A stretch of DNA of 64,000 bases, taken from positions 1 to 64,000 of the IMG/VR virus record IMGVR_UViG_3300021426_000095; one strand, written 5' to 3'. Shown here in pieces: positions 6,081-32,419 of the stretch (positions are counted from its first letter, which is position 1; each line of letters opens with the position of its first letter). Both the position numbers and the translations under genes were made by a program. The stretch is from a virus. The notes under the pieces were generated by a model. The model was not told the origin of the DNA. It was given only the letters and a program-made list of their open reading frames with translations, and did no database searches.

Positions 6081-6084
6081 TTAT

Positions 6085-18330: not shown

Positions 18331-18489
18331 ATGGCTGAAGGTAAAAAAGATATTCGTCTTAATATTCGGATGCCGCAATATCTGAAAGATAAGATTGAAC
18401 AAGAATCCAAGAGATTGGAATTAAGTCAAAGTGAGTTTGTGCGGCATTTAGTTATTGAATATTTTGCAAGAAAAGAAAAATTAGGTTAG
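18331..18489 (+). CDS. ribbon-helix-helix (CopG/Arc-like) DNA-binding protein, 52 aa
   Basis: KKDIRLNIRMPQYLKDKIEQESKRLELSQSEFVRHLVIEYF matches the RHH beta-strand plus two-helix pattern; RBS aaaggagg. Confidence 0.55.
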   Translation: MAEGKKDIRLNIRMPQYLKDKIEQESKRLELSQSEFVRHLVIEYFARKEKLG

Positions 18490-18498: not shown

Positions 18499-19062
18499 AT
18501 GGGTAGATATAATCAGGCACCAAAGTTGGTGAATAAAAAACCTAAATTAAATGGTAACACTATAATGATTAGTAATGAAATGTATTCTGCTATTTTTAAT
18601 GCAGTTGGCCGCAAATATCAAGCTGGAGCTTTAATGGTTTGGTTGATTGGTCAAGCAGATGGATTTGGTGTTGCATTAAAAACTGTTAGTGATGCTCTTG
18701 GTATGGATAAAAATGGTTATTATAAGTCTAGAGCCGCGTTAGAAGAACTTGGGTTTATTACGGCAGATGGAGATAATATTACGATTCATTATAATAAAAT
18801 TTTGGGTAATGAAAAAGATGACTCTAAAAATAGGGTAATGAAAAAGATGACTCATTCTTTTGATGACTCTATTTTGAGTAATGAAAAAGATGACTCTATT
18901 TTTTTGGGTCATCAAAAAGATGACCCTATGGGTAATGAAAAAGATGACTCTATGAGTCATCTAAAGTGGGAATATAACATAGAAGAACATAGAAAAACAA
19001 AGAAAGAAGAAGGTTTTAGATTAGAAGATTTTACGGATGAGAATGGGAACTTTAGATTTTAA
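18499..19062 (+). CDS. replication initiator (lambda-O / RepA-like, wHTH) with iterons inside its coding sequence
   Basis: HTH region ALMVWLIGQADGFGVALKTVSDALGMDKNGYYKSRAALEELGFI; the coding DNA 18780-18960 carries 5 tandem copies of gtaatgaaaaagatgactc (protein repeat GNEKDDS). Confidence 0.55.
   Translation: MGRYNQAPKLVNKKPKLNGNTIMISNEMYSAIFNAVGRKYQAGALMVWLIGQADGFGVALKTVSDALGMDKNGYYKSRAALEELGFITADGDNITIHYNKILGNEKDDSKNRVMKKMTHSFDDSILSNEKDDSIFLGHQKDDPMGNEKDDSMSHLKWEYNIEEHRKTKKEEGFRLEDFTDENGNFRF
18780..18960 (+). repeat. iteron array (5 x about 19 bp, G(G)TAATGAAAAAGATGACTC) inside the rep gene: candidate phage origin
   Basis: direct repeats at about 18783, 18824, 18874, 18905, 18935; the arrangement mirrors ori-lambda inside gene O. 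Confidence 0.5.
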
Positions 19063-19082
19063 ATGTAAGGAGTTAAATTAAC

Positions 19083-20636
19083 ATGGCTGAAAGAGAAACA
19101 GAATATTTATTTAAGCCTTATCAAATGCATATTTATATACCACATAAATGAGGAGCATACCCTCAAAAGGTTAAAATTAAAGATCGTATTAGTACTTATG
19201 AAGTTTGTCGAGTTATGGTTGATGGAAAATTAGTCCATGAACGGCATAGCGATTATTCTATAGAGGCTACTGAAAAAAATAATAAAAAAGATGGTAAACA
19301 CACTGGAAGATGTAATCTTTGTGGTAGTATACAAACAGAACCGCACAGTTGAGAAAATAAACCTCAATATATTAAAAGAGACGATATTAATCATAAATAT
19401 CTTTGTAGTAAGTTTGACACAAAAGGTCATCGTTGTGAAGGATATTATTTAGAAAAGCATAGTAAACAATATTCATTTCTTTTCGATCCTAAGGGTAAAA
19501 ATTATCGTAGTCCAGTATGACATATGGTTTTTTGTGAAATTTGTGGTGGAAGTTGACAAGAATCTCATCATTGAAAAGAAGATGGCCAAGGAGAGACTAA
19601 ATGAGAAATTTCTAATAAAGATAAACATCATAAAACCTGTATTTATTGTGGACAAGAAGAAGAAGGAAATCATAGTAATATAAAATATTTTCAGAAGTTC
19701 ATTAATAATGGTGATTTTGATACAGATAAGCATACGGCAGTATGTGGAGTTTGTCATGGACCATGACTTGAAGATCATGATTGACTGAGAAAAAGTGATA
19801 ATAGTCTTAGGTGAGAAAGTGAAAAAACTGATAGTCAATATAAAACACATCACAGGGTACAGTGTAGAAAATGTAAAGGTTTTCTATATGAAAGACATAA
19901 TTATGATCTTATTCATGTAAAATCTGGATATGACTTTGAAACTAAGTGTATATGTGGTAAAACGGATAGTATAAATAAATGAAGTATTGCTTATAAAAAT
20001 GTTCCTTGCGGGAATAAAAAAACTATGAATATTCAATTAAAATATACTGGTAAAGGTTATTTATATTTAAAAATTTTACCAGATGATCAAGGAAATTATC
20101 CTAATTATCCAATAGTTTATACAGGTGATTCAAAAAGACCTAGTCCTGAAAATAAAAATGAAAAACTTCCAATTCATGTTAAAAATGGTTGGTATAAACG
20201 TGGTAACGGTGAAGACTGAAATTTAAGTAGTTATAAAAAATATACATATAAAAAACATTTTGTAATAGAAGGTGTTAAGGAAAGTGAAAATCGAGGAATT
20301 CTTTATGAGGGAGAACGTTATAAAGGATATCGTCTTATATCTGATTATGCCGGTTATGAATCATCTGGATCAGGATCAAAAGTAACAAATATTGTGTTTT
20401 CATTAAAAGATATTAATGCTAATAAACATCGTTATTCTACTTCTAAAACAAAAGTAACTAATGAAAAAGAAGGAGGAGCAGATACTATATATTATTTTTA
20501 TAGAGGTAGATTTAATGATTTTTGGATCTATAGTAATAAGTTATATGAAGAACCATATATACTTTTTCCTTGTGTGCGTGGATGGCATAAAAGTAAAAAA
20601 AGTTTAATTAGTGGAAGTTATATAGTAACAGGGTAG
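19083..20636 (+). CDS. Cys/His-rich multi-zinc-finger protein (517 aa) with 11 in-frame TGA codons
   Basis: one continuous frame (track ORFs 20025.. and 20394.. are in frame with ATG 19083); repeated C-x2-C ... H motifs; TGA concentrated in the first 330 codons, TGG used in the last third. Confidence 0.5.
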
Positions 20637-20639
20637 TAT

Positions 20640-20800
20640 TAAATAAAATTTTATTTATTCAACTGGAATTTTATTTATTCAACCAGAATTTCATCTGCTC
20701 AACTGGAATTTTATTATTTGATTAAAATTTGATCTACTCAACTGAAATTAAATAAAATTTTATCTACTCAACTGGAATTTGAGTGCGCACATAATTACAG
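20640..20800. repeat. degenerate tandem repeat array (about 6 x 21-22 bp, AATTTTATnTAnTCAACTGG)
   Basis: ttcaactggaattttatttattcaaccagaatttcatctgctcaactggaattttatt...ctactcaactga...ctactcaactggaatttgag. Confidence 0.55.
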
Positions 20801-21001
20801 CTGCTGTCAAGAAATTTTCCAAATCGAGTCCTAAAAATTTTTACACTAGTGTAAAGAATTCTCTCACGAGTGTAGCCGCACAACCTTATACATTGATCTT
20901 CTTTTGGAAAATAATTCTGAAAGATAATTTTCATTTCTGAACCTATAAATATTAGTTGTCAGCTGTTCAATATTTATTTCGAGCTTAAGCTCAAAATTTA
21001 C

Positions 21002-21031
21002 TTGACGAACGTCAAGTAAATATGCTATAAT
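21002..21031 (+). promoter_or_regulatory. promoter TTGACG-N18-TGcTATAAT (the -35 sits in the palindrome cttgacgaacgtcaag) driving a short non-coding leader
   Basis: -35 21002-21007, -10 21026-21031; about 75-nt transcript with hairpin aaggaaa/tttcctt, then a second promoter. Confidence 0.55.
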
Positions 21032-21109
21032 ATATTTGTAAGAAAGGGAAAGGAAATTTAATCCTAATCTTACATATCAGGTTTCCTTCAAGAAAAAATA
21101 AAAAACTTC

Positions 21110-21139
21110 TTGACAATCGAAAAGGAAATATGATATAAT
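21110..21139 (+). promoter_or_regulatory. promoter TTGACA-N18-TGaTATAAT + ATAAATGTAAGAAAGGGAGAG leader
   Basis: -35 21110-21115, -10 21134-21139. Confidence 0.55.
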
Positions 21140-21259
21140 ATAAATGTAAGAAAGGGAGAGATGAGAAAGGAATCCCGCTTGGGACGTCCTCCCAGGAAGT
21201 GAAAAGAAATTTCATTTCCAAAACGAGACCGCTCGCAAGAGCAGAAAAGGAGGGCCATC

Positions 21260-21628
21260 ATGGCCGAGAAGAAGATCACCATCGCTGAGAAGTTCGCTGC
21301 TACTATCGCCCTGTTTGAGGGTACTGAGCCTGAGATCGAGTGGGACCCCGCTGATGCGGTTGAGTTCCTGAAGGATCGTGCTGAGAAGGCCAAGTCCAAG
21401 CCGCGTGAGCGCAAGGTTAAGCCTGAAGTTGCTGAGTTCCGTGAGCGTGTCGCGGAGTGGCTGGCTGAAGCTGAGGCTCCTGTGACTGCCAAGGAAGTTG
21501 GTGCGGCTCTGGGTGAGTCCACTCAGAAGGCGTCGGCAGCTCTGCGGTTCCTGGTCGCTGAGGGTGAGGTTGTTGCCCATGATGGCGAGAAGGCCCGCGA
21601 CGCCAAGACTTACGAGATCGCTCGCTAG
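21260..21628 (+). CDS. small winged-helix DNA-binding protein (paralog family, 4 members)
   Basis: GC-rich ORF; C-terminal VTAKEVGAALGESTQKASAALRFLVAEGEVV is wHTH-like; N-terminus MAEKK + KPRERK shared with 25116..25436; flanked by 5 copies of AATTTTCATTTCC. Confidence 0.55.
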   Translation: MAEKKITIAEKFAATIALFEGTEPEIEWDPADAVEFLKDRAEKAKSKPRERKVKPEVAEFRERVAEWLAEAEAPVTAKEVGAALGESTQKASAALRFLVAEGEVVAHDGEKARDAKTYEIAR

Positions 21629-21795
21629 TCTATAACGGTAGGGGAGGGTGCAATGGGGCACCCTCCCAGGAAACAAATTTTAAATTTGAATTTTAATTTT
21701 CATTTCTGAACTTTAAGATTCATATTTGAAATTTTCATTTCCAACTAATCGCAGGTTACTGAAGAAAATTTTCATTTCCAAGAGAGAGGAAAATA

Positions 21796-22188
21796 ATGAA
21801 ATATACTCTTCCTAAGTCATATGCAAATGCGGGACTGCAAGTTGAGATTCCTGATTCCACTCTTAAGCAGTATCGATCTGAGCTCGGTAGTACCAAGGCC
21901 GCAGTTGATAAGTGGCTGTATGAGAATGGCTATATGGCGAAGGTTGAGTATGAAGCTTCAGTAGAAAAGATTGAGGCTAAGAAGCCTGCTAAACGTGAGT
22001 TTAAAATAGACCAAGAGAAGAGCGAAATCATTAATTTTATCTATGAACGGTTGCGGGAGTATGAAGACGAAGAAGGGTCAGCTCTTTTGTCCGAGGTAGA
22101 GATCATAAACCGCAATCGCCTTATTTCTTTCTCTCTTGGAAACAATAAATATGAGCTGACCCTAGTGCGGAAAAAGCAACCTAAATAG
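21796..22188 (+). CDS. hypothetical protein
   Basis: ATG after agagaggaaaataatg; followed by tandem terminators. Confidence 0.5.
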   Translation: MKYTLPKSYANAGLQVEIPDSTLKQYRSELGSTKAAVDKWLYENGYMAKVEYEASVEKIEAKKPAKREFKIDQEKSEIINFIYERLREYEDEEGSALLSEVEIINRNRLISFSLGNNKYELTLVRKKQPK

Positions 22189-22195
22189 ATGACAC

Positions 22196-22227
22196 GAAAG
22201 GCCATAAGGTCGGTTCCTTTCTCTTTT
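22196..22227 (+). terminator. rho-independent terminator
   Basis: gaaagg-ccataaggtcggtt-cctttc + tctttt; a second weaker hairpin + T9 at 22275-22307. Confidence 0.55.
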
Positions 22228-22396
22228 AGCCGTAAGGCTAATAATACACGGCGATCCTGACTAAGCCGTGGGTTAAGGCGTTCGAAAGGGCGCCTTTTCT
22301 TTTTTTTATGCGGTGCGGCTGTCTAAAAAATTTTTAACGAATGTAAGACTTTCCGGTAAGCGGTATTAAATTTGCGGCGAATGGTAAGAATCGCTC

Positions 22397-22426
22397 TAGA
22401 CAGATGTAGTAAAGATATGATATAAT
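22397..22426 (+). promoter_or_regulatory. promoter of the TAGACA-N18-TATAAT class firing into the AT-rich block
   Basis: tctagaca 22395-22402, -10 22421-22426. Confidence 0.45.
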
Positions 22427-22429
22427 TAA

Positions 22430-22560
22430 TCTTAGAGATTAATTAATATATAAATATATTTTATATTATATAAATATTATATATTATATTCTTATATTTT
22501 ATATAGTTAATATATTATATATTTATATAATATATATGACATGACCTTTTTTCTTTCTTG
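22430..22560. repeat. extremely AT-rich (>90% A+T) low-complexity block: candidate DNA unwinding element
   Basis: taattaatatataaatatattttatattatataaatattatatattatattcttatattttatatagttaatatattatatatttatataatatatatgac. Confidence 0.5.
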
Positions 22561-22624
22561 GTACTTCTTTCTTTTTAACTAGTTATTGCGGCCCTAGTGG
22601 TCGTTTTTTTATTATAAAATAATA

Positions 22625-22680
22625 ATTGACAGGAACTTTATTTTATGATATAATAAAAGTGATATATATTTTTTACTAGT
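22625..22680 (+). promoter_or_regulatory. promoter TTGACAG-N17-TGATATAAT + conserved AAAAGTGATATATATTTTTT, copy 1
   Basis: -35 22625-22630, -10 22648-22653; near-identical 40-nt unit repeated at 22765-22815; the hairpin ctaaacgtg-actgccg-cacgtttag at 22699-22723 lies between the copies. Confidence 0.5.
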
Positions 22681-22764
22681 GTGTGCTTCACTAAACGTGA
22701 CTGCCGCACGTTTAGTTCAGCGAGTCAAGTTAAAAGATTTTTATATTAAAATAGTGCGGCGAGC

Positions 22765-22815
22765 TTGACAGCTGCATCATTTTATGATATAATAAAAGTG
22801 ATATATTTTTTTAAA
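22765..22815 (+). promoter_or_regulatory. promoter TTGACAG-N17-TGATATAAT + AAAAGTGATATATTTTTTT, copy 2
   Basis: -35 22765-22770, -10 22788-22793; followed by A/T runs. Confidence 0.5.
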
Positions 22816-23025
22816 AAAATTTTTTTTACTAAGATAAGTTAATTTTTTAATAGCTTAAAAATAAGCTTAAAAAATTCCTAAAAAGTTGTCTTGTCCCTTG
22901 ACAAATCTTATGATAAATAAGCTTTTTGCTGGGCAGAGAGCGCAGCCCAATATAGCTAAAATAAGCTTTCCGACCAAGTAATCAGGCCTTTTTTAAAATT
23001 GCGCAAATGCGGGCAAATCAAGTAG

Positions 23026-23057
23026 TTTTCCACAAAGTTATCCACAAGTTTTCCACC
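23026..23057 (+). promoter_or_regulatory. three head-to-tail DnaA-box-like 9-mers (TTTTCCACA, TTATCCACA, TTTTCCACC): oriC-like element
   Basis: 23026-23034 TTTTCCACA; 23038-23046 TTATCCACA (perfect consensus); 23049-23057 TTTTCCACC; spacing 12 and 11 nt. Confidence 0.55.
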
Positions 23058-23106
23058 ACTGGCCGCACATCTATCCTTCTATTGGGTGAGTTTGCGGATG
23101 TGAGAA

Positions 23107-23150
23107 AAATTGCCTATAGACCTGCGAGTACGACAGAAATTGCCTATACG
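23107..23150 (+). repeat. direct repeat GAAATTGCCTATA(g/c) x2
   Basis: gaaaaattgcctatagacc ... gaaattgcctatacgat. Confidence 0.4.
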
Positions 23151-23239
23151 ATTTTTGATACAGGCGTGCGGGCGAGCACGGCCGAGCTGCCTTATAAGCG
23201 CGTATAATGGTACATTTGTACGTTTGTTGCTTGCGCGGT

Positions 23240-23300
23240 AATTGTGGAGATTTTGTAGATTAGTTTTGGGATTTTTGTGGATTAGTTGTGGAGATTTTGT
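23240..23300. repeat. inverted-orientation DnaA-box-like repeats (TGTGGAGAT, TGTGGATTA, TTGTGGAGA) interleaved with TTTTGTAGATTAG repeats
   Basis: attgtggagattttgtagattagttttgggatttttgtggattagttgtggagattttgtgtagatta. Confidence 0.45.
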
Positions 23301-23339
23301 GTAGATTAAAAATTTCCCTTGACTACGTGGTATAATTTC

Positions 23340-23362
23340 GCTAGAATGCGCCGCATTCTAGC
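23340..23362. repeat. flank-conserved palindrome family, copy 1 (arms gctagaatgcg / cgcattctagc)
   Basis: aatTTCG-arm-c-arm-CGCTGAAAgg. Confidence 0.5.
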
Positions 23363-23380
23363 GCTGAAAGGTTTGGGCAA

Positions 23381-23409
23381 AAGAAAAACCCCGCCATTAC
23401 TGGGCGGGG
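23381..23409 (-). terminator. rho-independent terminator for 23441..23806
   Basis: minus strand: ccccgcc-cagtaat-ggcgggg + tttttctttt. Confidence 0.6.
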
Positions 23410-23440
23410 TTCTCGCCATTACTGGGCGATTAGGTGAGGA

Positions 23441-23806
23441 TTACACCAGCTTGTAGCCGACATAACGCCCCTTCACCTTTTCCACTTTCTCCACTTTACC
23501 AGCGGAGATAAGCACAGCCATGACTTTGGTGCATTTCTGCGAAGTCATAATCCCGTTTACGTGTTCCATAATCCACGAGGTCAGAACAGGCTCACCCTCG
23601 GGCATGACTTTAAGCACTTCGCCAGCCAAACGAATGTTCTCTTTGGCTGCCTTAGACGGCTCATTCGACTTTTCGCGGGGCTTAGTGATGCTTGCCAGCA
23701 TCTTGGCTGCGACCTCACGGGCGTCCTCACGGGCGAGGGTTTCATAATCGCCATTCACAACAGCAGTCAGGACTTCAGCGCGGGTGATGGTGGTGTTCTT
23801 AGCCAT
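23441..23806 (-). CDS. small winged-helix DNA-binding protein (paralog family)
   Basis: C-terminal LTSWIMEHVNGIMTSQKCTKVMAVLISAGKVEKVEKVKGRYVGYKLV is nearly identical to the C-terminus of 26375..26779; RBS aaaggag. Confidence 0.55.
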   Translation of the reverse strand: MAKNTTITRAEVLTAVVNGDYETLAREDAREVAAKMLASITKPREKSNEPSKAAKENIRLAGEVLKVMPEGEPVLTSWIMEHVNGIMTSQKCTKVMAVLISAGKVEKVEKVKGRYVGYKLV

Positions 23807-24075
23807 AATCAGGCTCCTTTCGGTTGCGGGTGAGATTCCGTTTTTTCTCTCCCTCTGACAGTTAATATATTACCAAATCTTAGTGCTGGGGTCAAGTAGA
23901 ATTTTGTCTTCATAAAGTCTCCATAATTCAGGATTTAAAACAAGCGTCTGACCTGCGGTTTTGGTGATCAATTTTTCCCATGCCGGCACAAAGGCAAATT
24001 CGCTTGATTCCGCCGGAATCAAGCGCTCAAACGTTTTAAAGAACAAAAAACCCGCCTGTTTTGGCGGGTTTTTGT

Positions 24076-24774
24076 TTAAAATTGCTCAAATCGCTTTGAA
24101 ATTTCGCGCCAATGCGGATTGTGCATGCAAATTTTAACAAAATCTGAATCAAACTTGCGCTTGCGGCGAATAATTGCTGCGAAAATGTAAGATTCTATCT
24201 CACAGTCTGCCCGTGCGGTGTGCTTTTCTTCAAAATCTGTATCATTTGTGAGGTAGCGATACACAGCTTCCGCACCTGTTTGCGGATGGCCTTTTGCGGT
24301 GGTCAAATTATGCTCAGCACAGAATTTTAGATAATTACGGCTATTGCAAAGGACGGAGAGAGCCATCGCCCAAATGTCCATAAATTTTACATCACCCTTA
24401 AAGAACTGGTCATAACCGAAGTATTGCGCCGTTTTAAGCAGATGAGATACGTCAAATGAAGCATTGTACGCGCACACGGTAGCGTTAAAAGCTTTGCGGA
24501 CACTGTTAATTGTGCGGCGAATCTCAGCAAACGGCATCACGGTAAAAGCATTTGAACCCTTGTACAGCTCAAAATAGTATTGAGCAATTTTAGTCTTAGT
24601 AAAGCAGTCATGAAACATATCAAGCGTCTCAGGATGGTTCATAAATTCCTCACACACAAAGCTACCCTCGGCAACCAAGTTGCCCTTGCGGTCAATCACC
24701 GTGTAGCCATAGTCAAAAACCAGGTCGTCGCACGTTTCGGTGTCAAGAATCATGAAGAACTTTTTGCTTGCCAT
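24076..24774 (-). CDS. DEDDh-family 3'-5' exonuclease (DnaQ / oligoribonuclease-like), paralog A
   Basis: Exo I ILDTETCD, Exo II YNASFDVSHL, Exo III HTARADCE. Confidence 0.65.
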   Translation of the reverse strand: MASKKFFMILDTETCDDLVFDYGYTVIDRKGNLVAEGSFVCEEFMNHPETLDMFHDCFTKTKIAQYYFELYKGSNAFTVMPFAEIRRTINSVRKAFNATVCAYNASFDVSHLLKTAQYFGYDQFFKGDVKFMDIWAMALSVLCNSRNYLKFCAEHNLTTAKGHPQTGAEAVYRYLTNDTDFEEKHTARADCEIESYIFAAIIRRKRKFDSDFVKICMHNPHWREISKRFEQF

Positions 24775-24804
24775 TTTGTTTCCTTTCTCTCTCTGACAAT
24801 TAGT

Positions 24805-24833
24805 ATATTACAGCATGTGCCGCACACAGTCAA
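24805..24833 (-). promoter_or_regulatory. island-type promoter (minus): TTGACT-N17-TAATAT + conserved ACTAATTGTCAGAGAGAGAAAGGAAACAAA leader
   Basis: -35 at 24833-24828, -10 at 24810-24805; equivalent units precede nearly every minus-strand gene of the island. Confidence 0.55.
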
Positions 24834-24915
24834 GTATTAATTTCAGGATTTTGTCTCTTCATATTTTCTTCACAATTGTTCTTGATCTTTCTCTTGGGGT
24901 GTGCAATGGTAAATT

Positions 24916-24940
24916 CGCTCGTTTGCGCCGCAAACGAGCG
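24916..24940. repeat. flank-conserved palindrome, copy 2 (arms cgctcgtttgcg / cgcaaacgagcg)
   Basis: aaATTCG-arm-c-arm-CGCTGAAAc; perfect 12-bp arms. Confidence 0.55.
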
Positions 24941-25115
24941 CTGAAACAAAAAACTCCCGCGTCCTGTGCGCAACAGGCTGATAGCGGGAGGGAGTCTATT
25001 CTTCGGGCACCTTACCATTCCCTTTTATTTGGCGGGGCTACCGCATTAGTAAACTGTTTAATCACCTCTTTTGGATTGTGGGCGGGGAATTTCACCCCGC
25101 CCTGTTTAGATTGGT

Positions 25116-25436
25116 CTAGAGCTTGTAGACCTTGACCTTTTCGGTCGTGGGAATTTCTTCCCACCCCATCGCCTTACAGATGGCGTTTGCCTTGGGCTTG
25201 GAGACTTCCAGAATCTCAGCCACGTTCGCAGCCTTGAAAGTCTCTTCGTCCCAGACCTCAGCGAACTTTTCACCGAGGGCGATGTTCGCATCACGCTTTG
25301 CCGTGTTAGCCTTGCGGGGACGCGGCTTCGTCACCTGAGCGTACATCTTCTCCAGAACCTCTACTGCTTCAGCATTCTCAACAGCAGCAATCGCGATTTC
25401 CAGAGCTTCCTTGCGGGTCATCTTCTTCTCAGCCAT
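25116..25436 (-). CDS. small winged-helix-like protein (paralog family)
   Basis: MAEKKMT...KPRPRK... resembles 21260..21628; its terminator ctcccgc...gcgggag + T6 lies at about 24955-25000 on the minus strand. Confidence 0.5.
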   Translation of the reverse strand: MAEKKMTRKEALEIAIAAVENAEAVEVLEKMYAQVTKPRPRKANTAKRDANIALGEKFAEVWDEETFKAANVAEILEVSKPKANAICKAMGWEEIPTTEKVKVYKL

Positions 25437-25611
25437 GTCACTTTCCTTTCTTTCGTGGGGAGTTTCTTTCTTTTTTCCTCTCCCCTCCTGACACTTAGTA
25501 TATTACACTACCCATACCCAAGAGTCAAGCATTAATTTCAGGATTCTTGCGGCTTCACAATTCCTTCACATTTGCGATGATCTTTTTGACTGGTGCGTGA
25601 TAAGGTAATTT

Positions 25612-25638
25612 CGCGTCATTTCCTCCGAAAATGACGCG
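25612..25638. repeat. flank-conserved palindrome, copy 3 (arms cgcgtcattt / aaatgacgcg, 6-nt centre)
   Basis: taATTTCG-cgtcattt-cctccg-aaaatgacgcg-gcc. Confidence 0.45.
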
Positions 25639-25700
25639 GCCATCAGAGTCAATTAAACTATTTTTAATTAAAAAATAAATGGGGCTATTGCCCCATTTAT

Positions 25701-26159
25701 TTACCACCTAGCATTAAGCCATTTACGAGTTTCTTTGTCATGAATTTTTACCGTTAGCTTTTTGTGATGTGAAATCCTCCAATCTTTGAACAGTGCAGGC
25801 TCTTCAATGGTATCAAAACCATTAGCTTTAATAATGACCTTTTTTACATCAACCCTCTCAAATAGTCCGACTTCATGAATAGCTACGACTTTGTACTTTT
25901 TGCCGTTAACCCTAATAAACTTTGGAACTACAATCGTTTTTGCGTGATGCTTAATTTTAGTCAGTGCGCAGATTTTACCAGTATACAGTGCATAATGATT
26001 GCCGTCTTTGTATTTTACAATTTGTGTAGCATTCGGTGGCAAATTAATATTTGCGGCGGTTAATTGTGATGCATGAGCCGTTGCGGGGAAAATAATCAAC
26101 GTGGCAAATAACATCAGGATGAACATCGAAATGAAATTACGATTATTAGAAGTGGTCAT
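25701..26159 (-). CDS. secreted or lipoprotein-like protein with signal peptide
   Basis: ATG 26159 after agaaaggga RBS; MTTSNNRNFISMFILMLFATLIIFPATAHA|SQ looks like a signal sequence. Confidence 0.5.
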   Translation of the reverse strand: MTTSNNRNFISMFILMLFATLIIFPATAHASQLTAANINLPPNATQIVKYKDGNHYALYTGKICALTKIKHHAKTIVVPKFIRVNGKKYKVVAIHEVGLFERVDVKKVIIKANGFDTIEEPALFKDWRISHHKKLTVKIHDKETRKWLNARW

Positions 26160-26295
26160 TTTGTTCCCTTTCTCTCTGTCCTTTTGACAAATACATAATA
26201 TCATATTCGTAGCTTAAATATTTCAGGATGTGACTTCCGCACATAATCTCCACATTTAGTTTTGATTTTTTCTCTTGGGTGTTACATAGTAATTT

Positions 26296-26321
26296 CGTTG
26301 GATTGCGCCCGCAATCCAACG
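26296..26321. repeat. flank-conserved palindrome, copy 4 (arms cgttggattgcg / cgcaatccaacg)
   Basis: aATTTCG-arm-cc-arm-CGCTGAAAgg. Confidence 0.55.
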
Positions 26322-26374
26322 CTGAAAGGAAAAGCCCCCGCCTTACGGCGAGGGCTAGAAGGGAAGGGGTCAGA

Positions 26375-26779
26375 CTAGACCAGCTCATAACCGACGTAGC
26401 GACCCTTGACCTTTTCTACACGGCGAGCCTTACCCGCGGCAATGAGAACTTCCATCACCTTTGTGCACTTCTGAGAGGTCATAATCCCGTTCACATGCTC
26501 CATAATTTCGGAGGTCAGCACGGGGCGGTCAGAGGGCATCCACTGGAGGACACGTGCGGCAAGCGCCTTGTTTTCCTTTGCGGCACGGCTCTCACCCTTC
26601 GGAGCCGTGGACTTCTTACCAAGCTGGGCGAGATGTGCCTTAGCCTTGTCCACGATTTCCGTGGGAGCATCCGTCTCTTCCAGCGCACGAATGGCAAATT
26701 CCATCATCAGCGCATTCGTAACCAGCGTCTCTTCGCCGTTGAGGGTGATGAAAACACGGGGAGCGTTCTTGGTAGCCAT
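26375..26779 (-). CDS. small winged-helix DNA-binding protein (paralog family)
   Basis: ATG 26779 after agaaagaagg RBS; the C-terminus is nearly identical to that of 23441..23806. Confidence 0.55.
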   Translation of the reverse strand: MATKNAPRVFITLNGEETLVTNALMMEFAIRALEETDAPTEIVDKAKAHLAQLGKKSTAPKGESRAAKENKALAARVLQWMPSDRPVLTSEIMEHVNGIMTSQKCTKVMEVLIAAGKARRVEKVKGRYVGYELV

Positions 26780-27032
26780 AGTGTACCTTCTTTCTGCCTT
26801 GCGGCGGTTCCTTGGGGAGTTCCTTTGCTCTCCCCTCCTGACACTTAGTATATTACTCCTGTCATCTCTCAGAGTCAAGCAAAATCTTTGAGAATTTTTC
26901 TCTCCATATTCTCTTCACAATTGCGGTTGTACCGGCAAACAGGCTTCTGACCTGGGGAAACGGGATCTTTCTGATAAGTTTAAATGTGAGCAATTTGGTT
27001 AATTTTTTCCCTGGTGTGTCTAAAGGGCAATT

Positions 27033-27057
27033 CGGTCGTTTGCGCCGCAAATGACCG
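27033..27057. repeat. flank-conserved palindrome, copy 5 (arms cggtcgtttgcg / cgcaaatgaccg, one G-T)
   Basis: caATTCG-arm-c-arm-CGCTGAAAgc. Confidence 0.5.
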
Positions 27058-27343
27058 CTGAAAGCAAATCGCCCCGCAGGCCTGACACGCAACGGGGCGA
27101 CAAGTATTTTCTTTAGAGGGCGCAGCAGGACGCATCCCCGCACCCTCACACTAGCGACTAGACCGCCGCGCTAGTGTTCTATTTTTTTAAAGTATCCCAA
27201 TAGTGTTTTGCAATATTTGGAGTTCTTTCTTCTTTTGGTAAATCTTTTTCCTCGGGAAGTGGAGAAAGTGCATACCAGATAAAGAGGGCGGGGAAGCCAA
27301 GTACCATAATGTAAGTAAAGATAGTTTGCAACATTTTAATCAC

Positions 27344-27616
27344 CTACCCACAGACCAAAATTGAAATTACCAGTCCAGCCGTGAGAGCAGTCAGACAAGC
27401 GTTTTTAATCTTGTCAGCTGCGGGACGCTCCAAGTAGAAATCACGACCAAGAGCAATCAGGTTTGCGACCAACCAAATGAGCTGTGCGACCAGTGCGAGG
27501 TCAAAGCGAACAAGCACCTGACCGATGATAGTCAAACCCAGACCCAAGAGCTGAAGATTCTCAACCAGCGTTACGTGCTTGCGACTTGCGAGTTTGTTAG
27601 CTTGCTTCTCAGTCAT
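27344..27616 (-). CDS. small membrane protein (2-3 TM)
   Basis: hydrophobic ORF with its own island-type promoter. Confidence 0.45.
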   Translation of the reverse strand: MTEKQANKLASRKHVTLVENLQLLGLGLTIIGQVLVRFDLALVAQLIWLVANLIALGRDFYLERPAADKIKNACLTALTAGLVISILVCG

Positions 27617-27938
27617 CTTAGTTCCTCTCTCTTTGATGATTTCATATTACCACCATTGCGAGATTGTGTCAAGAGATTTTTCAGACTTTTTTTATTGTTT
27701 AGTCTGAGGAAAGCTAAGGCGTGCATCTCTGACTGGTACCAAGGTCAGCCATCGCCACCCGACTGCGCCAAGTCCTAGTGTGCTCGGCTTGTGGTTGATT
27801 TACGCTTACCTCTCTTGACACTTAGTATATTACACTAATAAAGCGGTGTGGTCAAGTGTTAATTTCAGGATTTCTTTATCTTCACAGAATCTTCACAATC
27901 GCGGTTGATCTTTTCTGGCCCGGGTGTAATGGTAAAAT

Positions 27939-27963
27939 CGTGCGCTTGGCCCGCAAGCGCACG
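27939..27963. repeat. flank-conserved palindrome, copy 6 (arms cgtgcgcttg / caagcgcacg, centre gcccg)
   Basis: aaAATCG-arm-gcccg-arm-CCaaacaaaaac. Confidence 0.5.
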
Positions 27964-28013
27964 CCAAACAAAAACGCCCCGAAGGGCGTTTTAGAGAGAA
28001 AGGCCAATCTTGT

Positions 28014-28271
28014 TTAGTGCATGTCTGCCCATTCCTGAGCAGTGGTTTCAGTGGTGAACGGGCCAGCTACCGCGGTGTGATAAGTTTCCCAACCAAACAT
28101 TTCGTCATACACTTTTTCAACTTCTTCTACGAAGTAGGCCGCAGGCCAAACCTTCTTGCCGACTACCCTTGTCGGGTTTGCTGCTTCAACAGCTCCCAGA
28201 TGTTCTTTCATGTACCAATCACACTTGCAACCGAAGTCCCTAGCGTTTTTTTTGATTTCGTAGCGTTTCAT
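28014..28271 (-). CDS. hypothetical small protein
   Basis: ATG 28271 after gaaagagaaaggtaagaag. Confidence 0.45.
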   Translation of the reverse strand: MKRYEIKKNARDFGCKCDWYMKEHLGAVEAANPTRVVGKKVWPAAYFVEEVEKVYDEMFGWETYHTAVAGPFTTETTAQEWADMH

Positions 28272-28357
28272 CTTCTTACCTTTCTCTTTCTTTCTTACAA
28301 GGTAAGTGTACCATGAGGGGCTGACTTTGTCAACCCCTCTACGAAATCTCCACAAAA

Positions 28358-29041
28358 CTACTTCTTGCACTTAAGACGTTCTTTCCAGACGCGCTGACGG
28401 AAAACAGGCGAGCACATAGAAGTTTCAAGCTTTTGCTTGCGCTTAAACACCGCTTGCAAAATTTGTGCTTCAATTTCACAGTCTGATAGCGCGGTATGGT
28501 CTTCCTCAAACGTGGCGTTTTGCACAAGGTAGGAGTAGACGCTTTCAGCGCTGCAAGAAATATTACCCTTTTCAGTGATAAAACCTGAATCAATACACCA
28601 ACGGACATAATTGGAACTATCACAAATAATGTTAAGTGCCATGTTCCACAAGTCCCAAACCTCAGTATCTTCAGTGAAGAACTGCTCACCCATAAGGATT
28701 TTTGCATAATCATTAAGCACTTTTACATCAAATCCCGCATTGTAAGCGACCACAACAGCGTCAAACTTTTCAATGGTTTGAGTTGTGTACCAGTGAATAG
28801 TTTCAAAATCCATAATGGGCGCAGGCTCATTATCAAGATAAAAAGCAGCTTTGTGCTTAGAAAAAGAGTCACGCTTAATCAGATAGCGCAGCGTTTCATT
28901 TTGCATAATCTCAGCGACAAGACCGTTGAAGCGCTCTACGATTTGACCCTGACGGTCAACCAAAATCCAAGCTACGTCATAAGGCACGCGAGCATCTGCA
29001 ACCGTTTCAGTGTCAAGAACCATGTAATACTTCTTAGTCAT
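28358..29041 (-). CDS. DEDDh-family 3'-5' exonuclease, paralog B
   Basis: ATG 29041 after gaaaggaaa RBS; MVLDTETVAD, YNAGFDVKVL, HTALSDCE. Confidence 0.65.
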   Translation of the reverse strand: MTKKYYMVLDTETVADARVPYDVAWILVDRQGQIVERFNGLVAEIMQNETLRYLIKRDSFSKHKAAFYLDNEPAPIMDFETIHWYTTQTIEKFDAVVVAYNAGFDVKVLNDYAKILMGEQFFTEDTEVWDLWNMALNIICDSSNYVRWCIDSGFITEKGNISCSAESVYSYLVQNATFEEDHTALSDCEIEAQILQAVFKRKQKLETSMCSPVFRQRVWKERLKCKK

Positions 29042-29198
29042 TTCAGATTTCCTTTCTCTCTCTGACAAGATACATATTACACTAATGCGGTCATGCGGTC
29101 AACCACTTCACATAATCTCCACATTTCAGGATTGATCTGTCATAGTCCTGTACTAGTAATGCACGATTATTTTTCTCCAAGGCACATAAAGGCAAATT

Positions 29199-29223
29199 CG
29201 CCAGCGTGGGCCGCACGCTGGCG
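29199..29223. repeat. flank-conserved palindrome, copy 7 (arms cgccagcgtg / cacgctggcg)
   Basis: aaATTCG-arm-ggccg-arm-CTGAATG. Confidence 0.5.
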
Positions 29224-29256
29224 CTGAATGAGAAGGAGGGCTTTTGCCCTCCTGTT

Positions 29257-29457
29257 TTAAACTTCAATCTCTGCAAAGAGTTCATCAGTATCAGCATCCC
29301 AGATATCCGCATGACCTCCACCTAGCTCTTCAAGGCCACTTCGCACATCTTCGAGCATTTCTTTTTCAGCAGATGGCGTAGTGTAGGAAATCCAGTAATC
29401 GTGCCAGTGGTCGCATCCGTCTATTCCGTCAAATTCGATATTAAAACATCTAGCCAT
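29257..29457 (-). CDS. hypothetical small acidic protein
   Basis: ORF with RBS gaaaggaaagaaaatg. Confidence 0.45.
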   Translation of the reverse strand: MARCFNIEFDGIDGCDHWHDYWISYTTPSAEKEMLEDVRSGLEELGGGHADIWDADTDELFAEIEV

Positions 29458-29543
29458 TTTCTTTCCTTTCTCTTTACCTTACAGGTAAATTGTATCACAG
29501 AAAATAATAAAAGTGAAGACCCCTCACGGAGTCTTCACATTTT

Positions 29544-29735
29544 CTACACGTAATATTCTTTCCCAGAGGGCGCGACAATCTTAGCAACTTGTACACGGTT
29601 AACATAAACAAACTTTTTAGCTTCATCCATGACTTCAACAATACAAGTTGCTTTGTATTCCCGCACACAGGAGCGACCAATAAAATCTTCATACTTGAGT
29701 TGATAAACAACTTTCTTTGCGACTTTCTTTTTCAT
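29544..29735 (-). CDS. hypothetical small basic protein
   Basis: ORF with RBS agagaaaggagtaacc. Confidence 0.45.
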   Translation of the reverse strand: MKKKVAKKVVYQLKYEDFIGRSCVREYKATCIVEVMDEAKKFVYVNRVQVAKIVAPSGKEYYV

Positions 29736-29768
29736 GGTTACTCCTTTCTCTCTTGGACTACGTCCAGT

Positions 29769-30017
29769 TTACCAGAAGTCTACCACAATGTCAAGGTCAT
29801 TTTTGTCCTTCACATCTTCTCCACAATTGCGGAGTTGCGGCAGAAAATTTTCATCCAATGGCATGGTAATTTCTCCACCGACAAAATCTTCTGAATCGAG
29901 AACAATTTCTGCAGCATCAATACGGCGTTCAATTTCTTGGATTGCATCAGCCATACTATCAGCTTCAATAATAATGCGGCGTGCAAGAGTTTCTTTGTAA
30001 TCAAAAGTAAACTTCAT
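29769..30017 (-). CDS. hypothetical small acidic protein
   Basis: ORF; contains the CTTCACATCTTCTCCACAATTG motif within its coding sequence. Confidence 0.4.
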   Translation of the reverse strand: MKFTFDYKETLARRIIIEADSMADAIQEIERRIDAAEIVLDSEDFVGGEITMPLDENFLPQLRNCGEDVKDKNDLDIVVDFW

Positions 30018-30019
30018 AA

Positions 30020-30163
30020 TTAATTCTCCTGTTCATCTTCTGGTAACTCTTCATCTTCGTACCGATGAGTAAAGATATTTTCAATCTCTCCATTTTTTGT
30101 TTTTTGTTCAAAAAGGTCTTTCGATTTTTGGCTTTCTTCCTGAAGAAAATCAAACAGCGTCAT
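30020..30163 (-). CDS. hypothetical 47-aa acidic peptide
   Basis: ATG 30163 after gagaaaggattaatc; under 60 aa so not in the ORF track. Confidence 0.3.
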   Translation of the reverse strand: MTLFDFLQEESQKSKDLFEQKTKNGEIENIFTHRYEDEELPEDEQEN

Positions 30164-30180
30164 GATTAATCCTTTCTCTC

Positions 30181-30429
30181 TTACAAGAAGAGGATACCAT
30201 AAACACTAAACCAAGTCAAGATAAAAACAGCGATTGCGGCACATCCACACAAAAAAGCCACAATTCGCGCAGGCCAACTCAAAGCGTCATACATGTAGCA
30301 ATGTTCAACCCCTGTGCATGTTTCTACATCGCCAAGATAGGTAAACAGGTAAGCATCAGCCCATGCCCAAACAAAATAACACCCAACAGAGATGGTAATT
30401 GCCGCGCAAATAATAATAATTCCGTTCAT
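30181..30429 (-). CDS. small membrane protein
   Basis: ATG 30429 after aagagaaaggagagaaa; 3 hydrophobic segments. Confidence 0.45.
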   Translation of the reverse strand: MNGIIIICAAITISVGCYFVWAWADAYLFTYLGDVETCTGVEHCYMYDALSWPARIVAFLCGCAAIAVFILTWFSVYGILFL

Positions 30430-30545
30430 TTTCTCTCCTTTCTCTTTTGGATACATAGTATCACACTTAGTTTTAGGATGCAATACTCTTCACAGAATTA
30501 TCACATTCGAGCTAATTTTTTATCTACCTGCAATAGACGTAATTT

Positions 30546-30570
30546 CGCTCGCTTGCGCCGCAAGCGAGCG
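30546..30570. repeat. flank-conserved palindrome, copy 8 (arms cgctcgcttgcg / cgcaagcgagcg)
   Basis: aATTTCG-arm-c-arm-CTGGCAAG. Confidence 0.55.
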
Positions 30571-30595
30571 CTGGCAAGTTCCAGCGCTCTTTTTA

Positions 30596-30709
30596 CTACC
30601 TCTTGGAAATTTCTTCTTGCCAAGCTGCGATTTTGTCTTCATTTAGAAAGAGGGCTATCGCTGCGATGATTGTGAAAATGACGGCGATAATCAAATCAGA
30701 AATCAGCAT
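30596..30709 (-). CDS. 37-aa single-TM peptide
   Basis: ATG 30709 after ggagaaataaa; MLISDLIIAVIFTIIAAIALFL. Confidence 0.35.
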   Translation of the reverse strand: MLISDLIIAVIFTIIAAIALFLNEDKIAAWQEEISKR

Positions 30710-30719
30710 TTTATTTCTC

Positions 30720-30932
30720 CTAAGCTTTGAATTTATTTCCCCAGCCATCAGACAGATACAGCGGCTTGATAGTGTCTTCGCAATTCTCCATAAAGGCGAC
30801 AGCTTTGTCAACTGCTTCTGCAACGCCCAGGCATTTACCGAGGTCAGCTTGACGGGCAATCCACTCGTTTTTGTAGCTGTAGTAAGTCGCATAGTGGAGC
30901 TTGTAGTTGCCAATCCATTCCCGCTTTGCCAT
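30720..30932 (-). CDS. hypothetical small protein
   Basis: ATG 30932 after agagagaaaggaactcag. Confidence 0.45.
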   Translation of the reverse strand: MAKREWIGNYKLHYATYYSYKNEWIARQADLGKCLGVAEAVDKAVAFMENCEDTIKPLYLSDGWGNKFKA

Positions 30933-31074
30933 CTGAGTTCCTTTCTCTCTTTCTGACAAATAAATTGTACCATAAATAATTTTGACCGTCAAGAAAAGTT
31001 TCAGGATTACTTCTCTTCATAATTATTCCACAAGTGCGGAAGATCTTTTTCTCTGGTGCGCTTAAATGTAAAAT

Positions 31075-31099
31075 CGTCCGCTGTGGCCGACAGCGGACG
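31075..31099. repeat. flank-conserved palindrome, copy 9 (arms cgtccgctgt / acagcggacg, centre ggccg)
   Basis: aaAATCG-arm-ggccg-arm-CGGAGCC. Confidence 0.5.
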
Positions 31100-31134
31100 C
31101 GGAGCCTTTTTGACTCCGCGCCCCAAGAGAGAGA

Positions 31135-31341
31135 CTAAAACAGTCTTTCAAGGTCTGCCCAGCTGTAACCAATCGCGGGAGAGAGAATCAAGCGGCCAAT
31201 TCCAATTTGCCATTTAAACTGTTCTTCCGCTTCTTTCTTTGCGGCCAGCAGTTCTTCTTTGGTGTCAAAGAAATCAACATGCTGTTCGTACAAATCAAAA
31301 GTATCTTCGTCTACCCAGTCCCAAACAAGCATGAACTCCAT
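31135..31341 (-). CDS. hypothetical small acidic protein
   Basis: ORF with RBS agagaaaggaaaaatc. Confidence 0.45.
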   Translation of the reverse strand: MEFMLVWDWVDEDTFDLYEQHVDFFDTKEELLAAKKEAEEQFKWQIGIGRLILSPAIGYSWADLERLF

Positions 31342-31383
31342 GATTTTTCCTTTCTCTTAACTGACAAAGTCATTGTACCACAG

Positions 31384-31833: not shown

Positions 31834-31962
31834 GTTTCTTCCTCTCTCTTGGTTGATTACATAATAGCATAATACACTATTGGTAGTTACAGGATTGTCT
31901 TACTTCACATAATCTCCACAAGTCCGGCGATCTTTTTACCCTAGTGCGTAAGGTGCTAATTT

Positions 31963-31988
31963 CGTTCGCGCAGGACCGTGCGCGAACG
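31963..31988. repeat. flank-conserved palindrome, copy 10 (arms cgttcgcgca / tgcgcgaacg)
   Basis: taATTTCG-arm-ggaccg-arm-CACGACC. Confidence 0.5.
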
Positions 31989-31998
31989 CACGACCTGT

Positions 31999-32371: not shown

Positions 32372-32419
32372 GCCAGTCCCTTAAGCCAGCCACTCTGCTA
32401 GATTGCCTACAAGATTAGA

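What the first reader, a model, noticed from the sequence alone, without database searches (positions are those of the whole stretch)
20640..20800. Six degenerate 21-22 bp tandem repeats (AATTTTATnTAnTCAACTGG): iteron-like array between the Zn-finger gene and the island
A variable-period direct repeat array in a non-coding stretch just upstream of the tandem promoters at 21002 and 21110. It looks like an iteron or regulator-binding array rather than CRISPR: there are no constant spacers and the period equals the repeat length.
Basis: seen in the sequence. Interest (0 to 1): 0.6.

Follow-up and report, generated by a model that had tools for sequence, protein, structure and literature searches.

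The report
Variable 20-bp repeat at phage module junction
The repeat array is real, but it is most likely a copy-number-variable tandem duplication of a small conserved boundary element in an uncultivated TGA-recoded phage, not the replication origin, whose repeats lie inside the neighbouring initiator gene.

Summary
The array exists at 20647-20775. It has five good copies and one degenerate copy of a 20-bp unit, AATTTTATYTAYTCAACTGG, and is far beyond chance. The period is 20 bp, not 21-22. The window is part of a large phage that reads TGA as a sense codon in some genes.

About fifteen related metagenomic loci all carry the same element at the same place. It sits where unrelated accessory genes give way to a conserved block with two strong early promoters. 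Copy number runs from one to six, differs between 99%-identical strains, and arose with different periods in different lineages. In every relative the last copy ends in a small hairpin with compensatory changes, abutting GTGCGCAC.

The neighbouring Rep-like gene (18499-19062) carries its own repeats inside its coding sequence, as lambda O does. Those repeats change completely with the protein, while the 20-bp unit hardly changes. The array is therefore not that protein's iteron set.

My best reading is a slippage-generated minisatellite of a junction element (confidence 0.45). A binding array for a conserved, unidentified protein is the main rival. An origin is unlikely. Interest is low to moderate.

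The parts
20647..20775 (+). The tandem array: U1-U3, degenerate U4, U5, a 10-nt insert and U6, with unit AATTTTATYTAYTCAACTGG.
   Evidence: The array is polymorphic between near-identical strains.
20640..20657 (.). An 18-bp AT palindrome, TAAATAAAATTTTATTTA, that leads into U1. A second copy lies at 20749-20766 and leads into U6. This gives the array a higher-order 34-nt repeat.
   Evidence: (I2, and D1 copies 1 and 5 at 94% identity).
20767..20783 (+). Junction hairpin formed by the 3' end of the last unit and the next bases: CTCAACT / GGA / ATTTGAG, a stem of up to 7 bp with one mismatch. It is conserved with compensatory changes in all relatives.
   Evidence: 92.7% of cells paired, 3 of 5 pairs changed on both sides, 0 of 500 shuffles, slid controls 23-42%.
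20783..20790 (.). The palindrome GTGCGCAC, abutting the hairpin. It occurs once in the window.
   Evidence: and the alignment.
20791..21001 (+). The conserved non-coding block between the array and P1. It includes GTCAAGAAATTTTCCAAATCGAGTCCTAAAAAT at 20806-20838.
   Evidence: Alignment of 11 relatives. The 20-mer anchor recovers relatives.
21002..21139 (+). Tandem consensus sigma-70-type promoters: P1 (21002-21031) and P2 (21110-21139).
   Evidence: 11 and 12 of 12 positions matched. Both are conserved in relatives.
21260..21628 (+). The first island gene, a 122-aa winged-helix-like protein that is highly conserved in relatives.
19083..20636 (+). A 517-aa Cys-rich accessory gene with 11 in-frame TGA codons. 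It fills the variable slot to the left of the array. Full-length copies are seen only in this species; L014 carries a homologous C-terminus.
18499..19062 (+). A Rep-like (lambda O-like) gene with a winged-helix N-terminal domain. Five internal copies of GTAATGAAAAAGATGACTCT lie at about 18804-18960, followed by a purine-rich AT stretch. This is the better origin candidate.
18331..18489 (+). A 52-aa ribbon-helix-helix protein upstream of the Rep-like gene.

Best explanation
The array is a minisatellite: a copy-number-variable tandem duplication of the 5' part of a short conserved boundary element. That element is AATTTC, then a pyrimidine-rich CTACTCA box, then a small hairpin, then GTGCGCAC. 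In a family of TGA-recoded phages it marks the point where a hypervariable accessory-gene slot, downstream of the replication-initiator gene, meets the conserved early-promoter block.

Shown: every relative carries at least one copy at this junction. Several lineages have duplicated it independently, with periods of 20, 22, about 31 and 32 bp. Two 99%-identical strains differ in copy number and unit order. Only the last copy keeps the complete hairpin.

Inferred: the duplications arise by slipped-strand or unequal pairing across the AATTT microhomology that brackets a type-I unit. The extra copies are dispensable. Whatever function exists resides in the terminal copy with its hairpin, acting as single-stranded RNA or DNA. 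The array is not the replication origin. The origin is most likely the lambda-type repeat set inside the Rep-like gene at 18.8-19.0 kb.
For: 1. The array is real and unique in the window.
2. There are two alleles in near-identical genomes. Allele A (window, L001, L004, L005) has 5 good and 1 degenerate unit. Allele B (L002, L003, L013) has 3 good and 2 degenerate units in a different order. Their flanks are about 99% identical.
3. Syntenic relatives carry 3 units (L010, L011), 2 units (L012; L024 with a 32-bp period), 2 good plus 1-2 degenerate units of about 30 bp (L014), or a single unit (L007, L009, L015, L019, L022, L027, L030).
4. Homology among relatives begins exactly at the unit. To its left lie unrelated genes whose stop codon abuts AATTTC.
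5. In type-I loci the unit starts with AATTT and is followed by AATTTG. Those loci are mostly multi-copy. Type-II loci, which end in GAAGTTGG, lack this microhomology and are mostly single-copy (read).
6. Unit identity between the window and L010 is 80-85%, close to the 76% nucleotide identity of the surrounding aligned block. There is no sign of extra constraint on the internal copies.
7. The terminal hairpin shows covariation, whereas the internal copies have lost the right arm (read).
8. The Rep-like protein has its own repeats, which change fully with the protein. In L007 they continue past its stop codon, so they are DNA-level sites.
Against: Recurrent independent expansion in at least five lineages could reflect selection for several sites rather than a mutational hotspot. 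The periods (20, 20, 22, 30, 31, 32) all lie within about 1.5 bp of whole multiples of 10.5 bp. That fits proteins bound on one face of the helix. This is a post hoc observation, and the 39-bp spacing does not fit. A degenerate unit (U4) is kept unchanged in both alleles. The slippage mechanism is inferred from microhomology and was not observed. The hairpin is thermodynamically marginal: RNAalifold on the MAFFT alignment predicts no structure. The covariation count also rests on an alignment that I registered by hand.
Confidence: 0.45

Rival explanations
1. The array is a set of same-face binding sites for a conserved DNA-binding protein. Candidates are the invariant winged-helix product of the first island gene (21260) or a host factor. 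It would act as an operator-like, boundary or titration element for the early-promoter block. Copy number would tune occupancy.
For: The units are direct, asymmetric and 20 bp long, the size of typical winged-helix or iteron sites. Periods in independent lineages are close to 2 or 3 helical turns. The element is retained in every relative examined. The recognition helix of the 122-aa protein (STQKASAALRFLVAEG) is nearly invariant across relatives, matching a conserved site.
Against: No binder is identified. Neither RHH1, nor the Rep-like protein, nor the winged-helix protein co-varies with unit type I versus II; L012 and L027 share the protein allele but differ in unit type. Many relatives manage with a single copy. 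The array is 230 bp or more from the nearest promoter. A weight matrix built from the island's promoter-upstream boxes does not score the units at or above the 99.9th percentile.
Confidence: 0.25
2. The functional unit is the hairpin read as plus-strand RNA. It would be a nut/boxB-like or processing/stability site at the end of the RHH-Rep-accessory operon. The repeated units would be extra partial sites on that transcript.
For: The stem is 5-6 bp with a purine-rich G(G/A)A or GAAA loop. There are three compensatory pair types and a compensatory base-pair insertion. G-T pairs fall on the plus strand in L010 and L027. No intrinsic terminator separates the upstream genes from the element, so it should be transcribed.
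Against: The hairpin is too weak for RNAalifold to call. One A-C cell (L014) would favour the minus strand. No N-like protein is identified. The site lies at the end of an operon, not just after a promoter. The internal units lack the right arm. There is no Rfam match.
Confidence: 0.1
3. The hairpin and GTGCGCAC site is a physical genome end, or the left boundary of a long terminal repeat that holds the early island. The array would be a repeat tract next to the terminus that takes part in concatemer processing, as the short repeat series beside the T7 terminal repeat are thought to do.
For: The site is unique and palindromic. Tandem strong host-type promoters lie 220-330 bp inside it. The sequence to its left is hypervariable. 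The island looks like a host-takeover early module. Two independent metagenomic contigs (L018, L021) begin inside the GCGC(C)AC motif.
Against: Contig breaks at this point are equally expected from assembly-graph branching where strain-variable sequence meets shared sequence; other contigs break just after the anchor, where strains diverge again. No read-level evidence is available. There is no similarity between the left and right island borders. The T7 comparison is from memory.
Confidence: 0.1
4. The units are iterons of a replication origin or copy-control locus, bound by the neighbouring Rep-like protein, comparable to P1 incA downstream of repA.
For: The array consists of direct 20-bp repeats in AT-rich DNA, 1.6 kb downstream of a Rep-like gene with a winged-helix domain. 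In L012 a different Rep-like gene ends right at the array.
Against: The Rep-like gene has its own internal repeats, GTAATGAAAAAGATGACTCT, which are unrelated to the unit. They are followed by a purine-rich AT stretch, which is the lambda ori layout. Those repeats differ completely in L009, L010 and L011, while the 20-bp unit is nearly unchanged. The same unit sits beside two unrelated Rep types. Many relatives have only a single copy. There is no DnaA-box cluster at the array.
Confidence: 0.05

Closest known systems
Intergenic minisatellites (VNTRs) generated by slipped-strand mispairing
   Same: Head-to-tail copies. Copy number and unit order differ between 99%-identical genomes. Microhomology brackets the unit. 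Expansions are independent in different lineages.
   Different: The duplicated piece is part of a conserved cis element that every relative keeps at a fixed module boundary, so it is not anonymous DNA.
Lambda-type origin iterons inside the initiator gene (lambda O / ori), and auxiliary iteron arrays such as P1 incA (from established knowledge)
   Same: Direct repeats of about 20 bp near a winged-helix initiator gene.
   Different: In this window the lambda-like arrangement is found inside gene 18499-19062, not in the array. The array's sequence is unrelated to those repeats and does not co-vary with the initiator.
PeSL cassettes and hyperplastic regions of T4-type phages (PMC2839356, PMC4122927)
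   Same: The array sits at the edge of a region built from repeated cassettes (strong sigma-70-like promoter plus stem-loop) flanking small non-essential genes. The neighbouring gene content is shuffled between close relatives.
   Different: The array contains no promoter, and its hairpin is far smaller than a terminator. The PeSL-like cassettes are in the island (21-33 kb), not in the array.
Lambda nut boxB-type RNA hairpins (from established knowledge)
   Same: A 5-bp stem with a purine-rich loop whose stem sequence varies by compensatory change.
   Different: The loop has three, sometimes four, nucleotides. No boxA was recognised and no N-like protein was identified. The site is at an operon end, not just after a promoter.
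ParR-type plasmid centromeres made of 20-bp tandem repeats bound by a ribbon-helix-helix protein, such as pSK41 parC (from memory)
   Same: Tandem direct repeats of 20 bp, with a small RHH protein encoded nearby.
   Different: No partition NTPase was annotated within 10 kb. The RHH gene is 2.1 kb away and does not co-vary with the unit. The genome looks like a large lytic-type phage.

Membership tests
Replication-origin iterons | Several direct repeats of 17-22 bp. | tested here: met
   Five good copies and one degenerate copy of a 20-bp unit.
Replication-origin iterons | The repeats match the specificity of the cognate initiator and change with it. | tested here: not met
   The initiator-like gene has different internal repeats that diverge completely among relatives, while the 20-bp unit stays 80-85% identical.
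Replication-origin iterons | An adjacent AT-rich unwinding element and/or host initiator (DnaA) boxes. | tested here: not met
   I saw no separate AT-rich unwinding stretch flanking the array in the sequence. There is no DnaA-box cluster at the array; the only exact box is at 23038.
Replication-origin iterons | A multi-copy array retained in related replicons. | tested here: not met
   At least seven related loci carry a single copy.
Replication-origin iterons | Initiator binding to the repeats and replication initiation at the site. | not testable with these tools
   This needs binding assays and origin mapping.
CRISPR array | Constant repeats separated by unique spacers of similar length. 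| tested here: not met
   The units are contiguous, so the period equals the unit length.
Plasmid-type partition centromere (RHH ParR/ParG with tandem repeats) | Repeats adjacent to a par operon that encodes a partition NTPase. | tested here: not met
   No ParA/ParM-type Pfam family appears among the called genes within 10 kb on either side in the identical locus L001. The RHH protein has no C-terminal domain.
Intrinsic terminator | A GC-rich stem-loop followed by a T run. | tested here: not met
   No plus-strand terminator-like site lies between 18269 and 22275. The junction hairpin is AT-rich, 5-6 bp long, and followed by GTGCGCAC.
PeSL-like promoter/stem-loop cassette | A strong sigma-70-like promoter joined to a stem-loop, repeated through a hyperplastic region. 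| tested here: not met
   The array has only a 9-of-12 promoter-like match. It shows no significant similarity to the island's modules. The island itself does fit this description.
Minisatellite / VNTR | Head-to-tail copies whose copy number differs between otherwise near-identical genomes. | tested here: met
   Allele A versus allele B, with flanks about 99% identical.
Minisatellite / VNTR | Independent expansions and microhomology at the unit borders. | tested here: met
   Periods of 20, 22, about 31 and 32 bp in different lineages. AATTT lies at both ends of the type-I unit.

The most novel reading that the evidence does not exclude
The conserved hairpin plus GTGCGCAC site, with its expandable upstream units, is a previously undescribed cis element of this phage group. 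It could be the processing site or physical left end of the genome next to the early promoters. It could instead be a nut-like RNA switch that couples the replication operon to early-region read-through. In either case the repeated units would serve as adjustable protein-loading sites.
Probability: 0.15. Interest if true: 0.5.

Novelty: new member of a known kind. Interest (0 to 1): 0.25.

Why it matters
The direct value is a correction. Annotating this array as the origin would be wrong. The origin-like repeat set lies inside the initiator gene 1.7 kb to the left, and a second candidate (a promoter reading into a 100-bp all-AT stretch) lies at 22.4 kb. The comparison also defines a precise recombination boundary in a family of uncultivated TGA-recoded phages. 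To its left, unrelated accessory genes are swapped in and out. To its right, a conserved early-promoter block begins with a small covarying hairpin. That boundary element is a concrete, testable handle on how module exchange is delimited in these phages and, if the rival readings hold, on where their genomes are cut or how early transcription is insulated.

Tried and rejected
1. I tested whether the array units are copies of the double 11-bp boxes (TTGTGAAGATT) upstream of the island promoters. A post hoc pattern, ATCTNCNCAA, looked enriched. An unbiased weight matrix built only from island boxes gave no array hit at or above the 99.9th percentile. Rejected.

2. I tested whether the junction is a degenerate copy of the island's hairpin module. 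Local alignments against seven modules gave z of 3.2 or less, and mostly about 0. Rejected.

3. I looked for a shared element at the left and right borders of the island, as att-like or terminal repeats would give. The best local alignment scored barely above the best shuffle and was AT-rich low-complexity sequence. Rejected.

4. I looked for co-variation between unit type and the RHH1 beta-strand, or the recognition helix of the 122-aa protein. There is none.

5. I searched for relatives in IMG/VR using a two-unit DNA pattern and using the Cys-rich and Rep-like proteins. Nothing was found. Megablast against GenBank phages also found nothing.

6. The Rep-like family has no hit in Pfam or in PDB sequences. 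Only the predicted fold shows a winged helix, and the matches are weak.

7. The anchor 20-mer in bacterial genomes gave only chance matches: five in Psychrobacter genomes, like the metagenome hits L016 and L017 read, and one unrelated MAG contig. There is no prophage or host lead.

8. I compared the layout with Alicyclobacillus phage KKP_3916 to infer genome ends. Its architecture is not comparable.

9. Rfam gave nothing in the region at the gathering threshold or at E of 1 or less, apart from chance-level hits.

10. Folding of the array gives z = -2.0 on both strands, explained by the two copies of the 18-bp AT palindrome.

Full report
**Observation.** The sequence at 20637-20790 reads TAT TAAATAA, then U1 AATTTTATTTATTCAACTGG, U2 AATTTTATTTATTCAACCAG and U3 AATTTCATCTGCTCAACTGG. 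These are followed by U4 AATTTTATTATTTGATTAA, U5 AATTTGATCTACTCAACTGA, the insert AATTAAATAA and U6 AATTTTATCTACTCAACTGG. The tract ends in AATTTGAGTGCGCAC. Tandem Repeats Finder gives a period of 20, with 39 and 30 as higher-order periods. The repeat finder gives five copies in register at spacings of 20, 20, 39 and 30. The period is 20 bp rather than 21-22 bp, and the count is five good copies plus one degenerate copy. An 18-bp AT palindrome precedes both U1 and U6. It explains the modest folding z-score of -2.0 on either strand.

**Context.**
- The window is part of a large phage. It carries a tRNA array at 1-6200.
- By my reading of the translations, it also encodes a terminase large subunit, a portal protein, a PolIII-alpha-like protein, an anaerobic ribonucleotide reductase and a RecJ-like protein.
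- The terminase is about 43% identical to those of Enterococcus phage H1, Geobacillus virus E3 and phAss-1.
- Several genes are open only if TGA is a sense codon.
- The Cys-rich gene ending at 20636 has 11 in-frame TGA codons and no other internal stop.
- A tRNA with anticodon tca lies at 49729-49825.
- Region 21.0-33.0 kb has 41-47% GC, against about 30% elsewhere.
- That region is built from about 14 cassettes. Each has two 11-bp upstream boxes, a consensus-like promoter, a purine-rich leader, a small ORF and GC palindromes. Most are on the minus strand.
- The layout resembles the promoter/stem-loop cassettes of T4-type hyperplastic regions (PMC2839356, PMC4122927).

**Relatives.**
- The Cys-rich protein is found only in one tight cluster.
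- The contigs from that cluster show two alleles of the array in genomes that are otherwise about 99% identical. Allele A is identical to the window. Allele B has three good and two degenerate units in a different order.
- The Rep-like protein (18499-19062) has 27 homologues at 42-95% identity.
- Their contigs are syntenic: RHH gene, Rep-like gene, a variable accessory gene, the repeat element, a conserved block, P1 and P2, a 122-aa gene, a 130-aa gene, and then the island.
- A 20-mer from the conserved block recovered more junctions.
- L010 and L011 have three units of 20 bp. L012 has two. L024 has two units with a 32-bp period. L014 has two good and one or two degenerate units of about 30 bp.
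- L007, L009, L015, L019, L022, L027 and L030 have one unit.
- Homology between relatives starts exactly at the unit. To its left lie unrelated genes: the Cys-rich gene, an HNH/NUMOD gene, a second RHH gene, a Zn-ribbon gene, or another Rep type. In each case the stop codon abuts AATTTC.
- Nucleotide identity is 75-82% in both the flanks and the island.
- Unit identity between the window and L010 is 80-85%. That is little above the background figure.

**The hairpin.** In every relative the last unit and the following bases form a 5-6 bp stem with a GGA, GAA or GAAA loop, directly abutting GTGCGC(A/C).
- The stem variants are CAAAT/ATTTG, CCAAT/ATTGG, GCAAT/ATTGC, CCAAC/GTTGG, GCAAC/GTTGT, TAAC/GTTA and ACAGT/ACTGT. 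In the window the stem is CTCAACT/ATTTGAG with one mismatch.
- On an ungapped alignment that I registered by hand, 92.7% of cells pair and three of five pairs show changes on both sides.
- No shuffle out of 500 reaches the observed values, and slid controls give 23-42% paired.
- RNAalifold on the MAFFT alignment calls nothing, so the hairpin is energetically marginal.
- Internal units in the window lack the right arm.
- GTGCGCAC occurs once in the window.

**Why it is not the origin.**
- The Rep-like gene contains five copies of GTAATGAAAAAGATGACTCT (about 18804-18960), followed by a purine-rich AT stretch.
- In L007 further copies lie beyond the stop codon, so these are sites in the DNA and not only a peptide repeat.
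- In L009, L010 and L011 the internal repeats are entirely different sequences.
- The protein alignment shows a conserved N-terminal domain, a repeat-encoded centre of variable length, and alternative tails.
- The predicted N-terminal domain is a winged helix (pLDDT 70-85). Fold matches to ArsR/MarR-type proteins and a Rep-DNA complex are weak.
- This is the lambda O/ori arrangement (established knowledge).
- The 20-bp unit does not follow these changes, and it also sits beside an unrelated Rep type in L012.
- No DnaA-box cluster flanks the array, and I saw no separate AT-rich unwinding stretch beside it.

**Candidate binders.** RHH1 beta-strand variants and the recognition helix of the 122-aa protein do not track unit type I versus II. 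The 122-aa protein is nearly invariant, so it could still bind the conserved part of the unit. A weight matrix built from the island's upstream boxes does not recognise the units.

**Interpretation.** The most economical reading is that the functional element is the single junction copy with its hairpin. On that reading the array is a slippage-type expansion of its 5' part. Five observations favour this:
- the polymorphism between strains;
- the independent expansions with different periods;
- the AATTT microhomology that brackets type-I units, which are mostly multi-copy, and is absent from type-II units, which are mostly single-copy;
- the lack of extra sequence constraint on the units;
- the loss of the hairpin in internal copies.

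Against this reading, the periods cluster near whole numbers of helical turns and expansion is recurrent. Both features fit a same-face protein-binding array, which I keep as the main rival (0.25). An RNA-level role for the hairpin and a genome-end or terminal-repeat boundary are each held at 0.1. Two contigs start inside GCGC(A/C)AC, but assembly-graph branching explains that equally well. The iteron reading is held at 0.05.

**Novelty and interest.** Tandem repeats at phage module boundaries are a known kind of feature. This one is a new example in an undescribed phage group. The finding is of low to moderate interest (0.25). The conserved covarying hairpin at a sharp recombination boundary is its most interesting part.

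Noticed in passing
window 19083-20636, 33293-51418 and 49729-49825: Stop-codon recoding. The Cys-rich gene has 11 in-frame TGA codons, and many packaging and structural genes are open only if TGA is read as sense. The PolIII-alpha, NrdD and RecJ-like genes contain no TGA. A tRNA with anticodon tca, which ARAGORN calls SeC, lies at 49729-49825.
   Followed up: partly
window 18499-19062; repeats at about 18804-18960: A lambda O-like initiator gene with its repeat set and a purine-rich AT stretch inside the coding sequence. The repeat sequence and copy number change completely between homologues (proteins of 172-301 aa). In L007 copies continue past the stop codon. This is the best origin candidate.
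   Followed up: yes
window 21000-33000: An island of 41-47% GC in a genome of about 30% GC. It is made of about 14 cassettes. Each has two 11-bp direct boxes (TTGTGAAGATT), AATCCTGAAATTAA, TTGACx-17-TAATAT, a GAGAGAAAGGAAA leader and a small ORF. The ORFs include paralogous winged-helix proteins at 21260, 23441, 25116 and 26375. The design is PeSL-like.
   Followed up: partly
window 23333-23373, 23995-24035, 24910-24950, 27027-27067, 29193-29233, 30540-30580, 31045-31099, 32317-32371 and 32742-32796: A family of near-perfect palindromes of about 25 bp with conserved flanks (AATTCGC ... GCGCTGAAA). The stem sequences differ from copy to copy while staying complementary. There is one per cassette, none is followed by a T run, and their function is unknown.
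   Followed up: no
window 22397-22900: Three consensus promoters (22397, 22626, 22765) have no ORF downstream. The first reads straight into a 100-bp stretch made only of A and T (22440-22537). The other two are duplicates followed by AAAAGTGATATAT. They could be a transcription-activated origin or small RNA genes. AT-rich repeats occupy the same position in L010 and L011.
   Followed up: no
window 23242-23308: A 22-bp tandem array of three copies (TTGTGGAGATTTTGTAGATTAG). It is three copies of the island's double upstream box, directly in front of the plus-strand promoter at 23319.
   Followed up: partly
window 20976-21021: A 46-bp segment containing the perfect palindrome ATTTACTTGACG/CGTCAAGTAAAT supplies the -35 of P1. 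It is present in the window, L010 and L015, and absent in allele B, L007, L009, L011, L012 and L022. In those, P1 uses TTGCCA or TTGTCA as its -35.
   Followed up: partly
window 20926, 21207, 21695, 21730 and 21767 (plus strand): Five copies of AATTTTCATTTC[CT][AG]A, confined to the leaders of the two plus-strand island genes. That is six matches window-wide against 1.9 expected. Their function is unknown.
   Followed up: no
window 19063-20646 and the equivalent slot in L007, L009-L012, L014, L015, L024, L027 and L030: A hypervariable accessory-gene slot lies between the initiator gene and the junction element. In different relatives it holds the Cys-rich gene, an HNH/NUMOD endonuclease, a second RHH gene, a 91-aa Zn-ribbon gene, tiny ORFs, or a different Rep-like gene.
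   Followed up: partly
window 20793-20811 (minus strand): On the minus strand, TTGACA is followed after only 7 nt by TGTAATTAT, an extended -10-like element. L010, L019 and L030 have TGTTATTAT, TGTTAATAT and TGTAAATAT at the same place. If this is active without a -35, it would transcribe the array as a minus-strand RNA.
   Followed up: no
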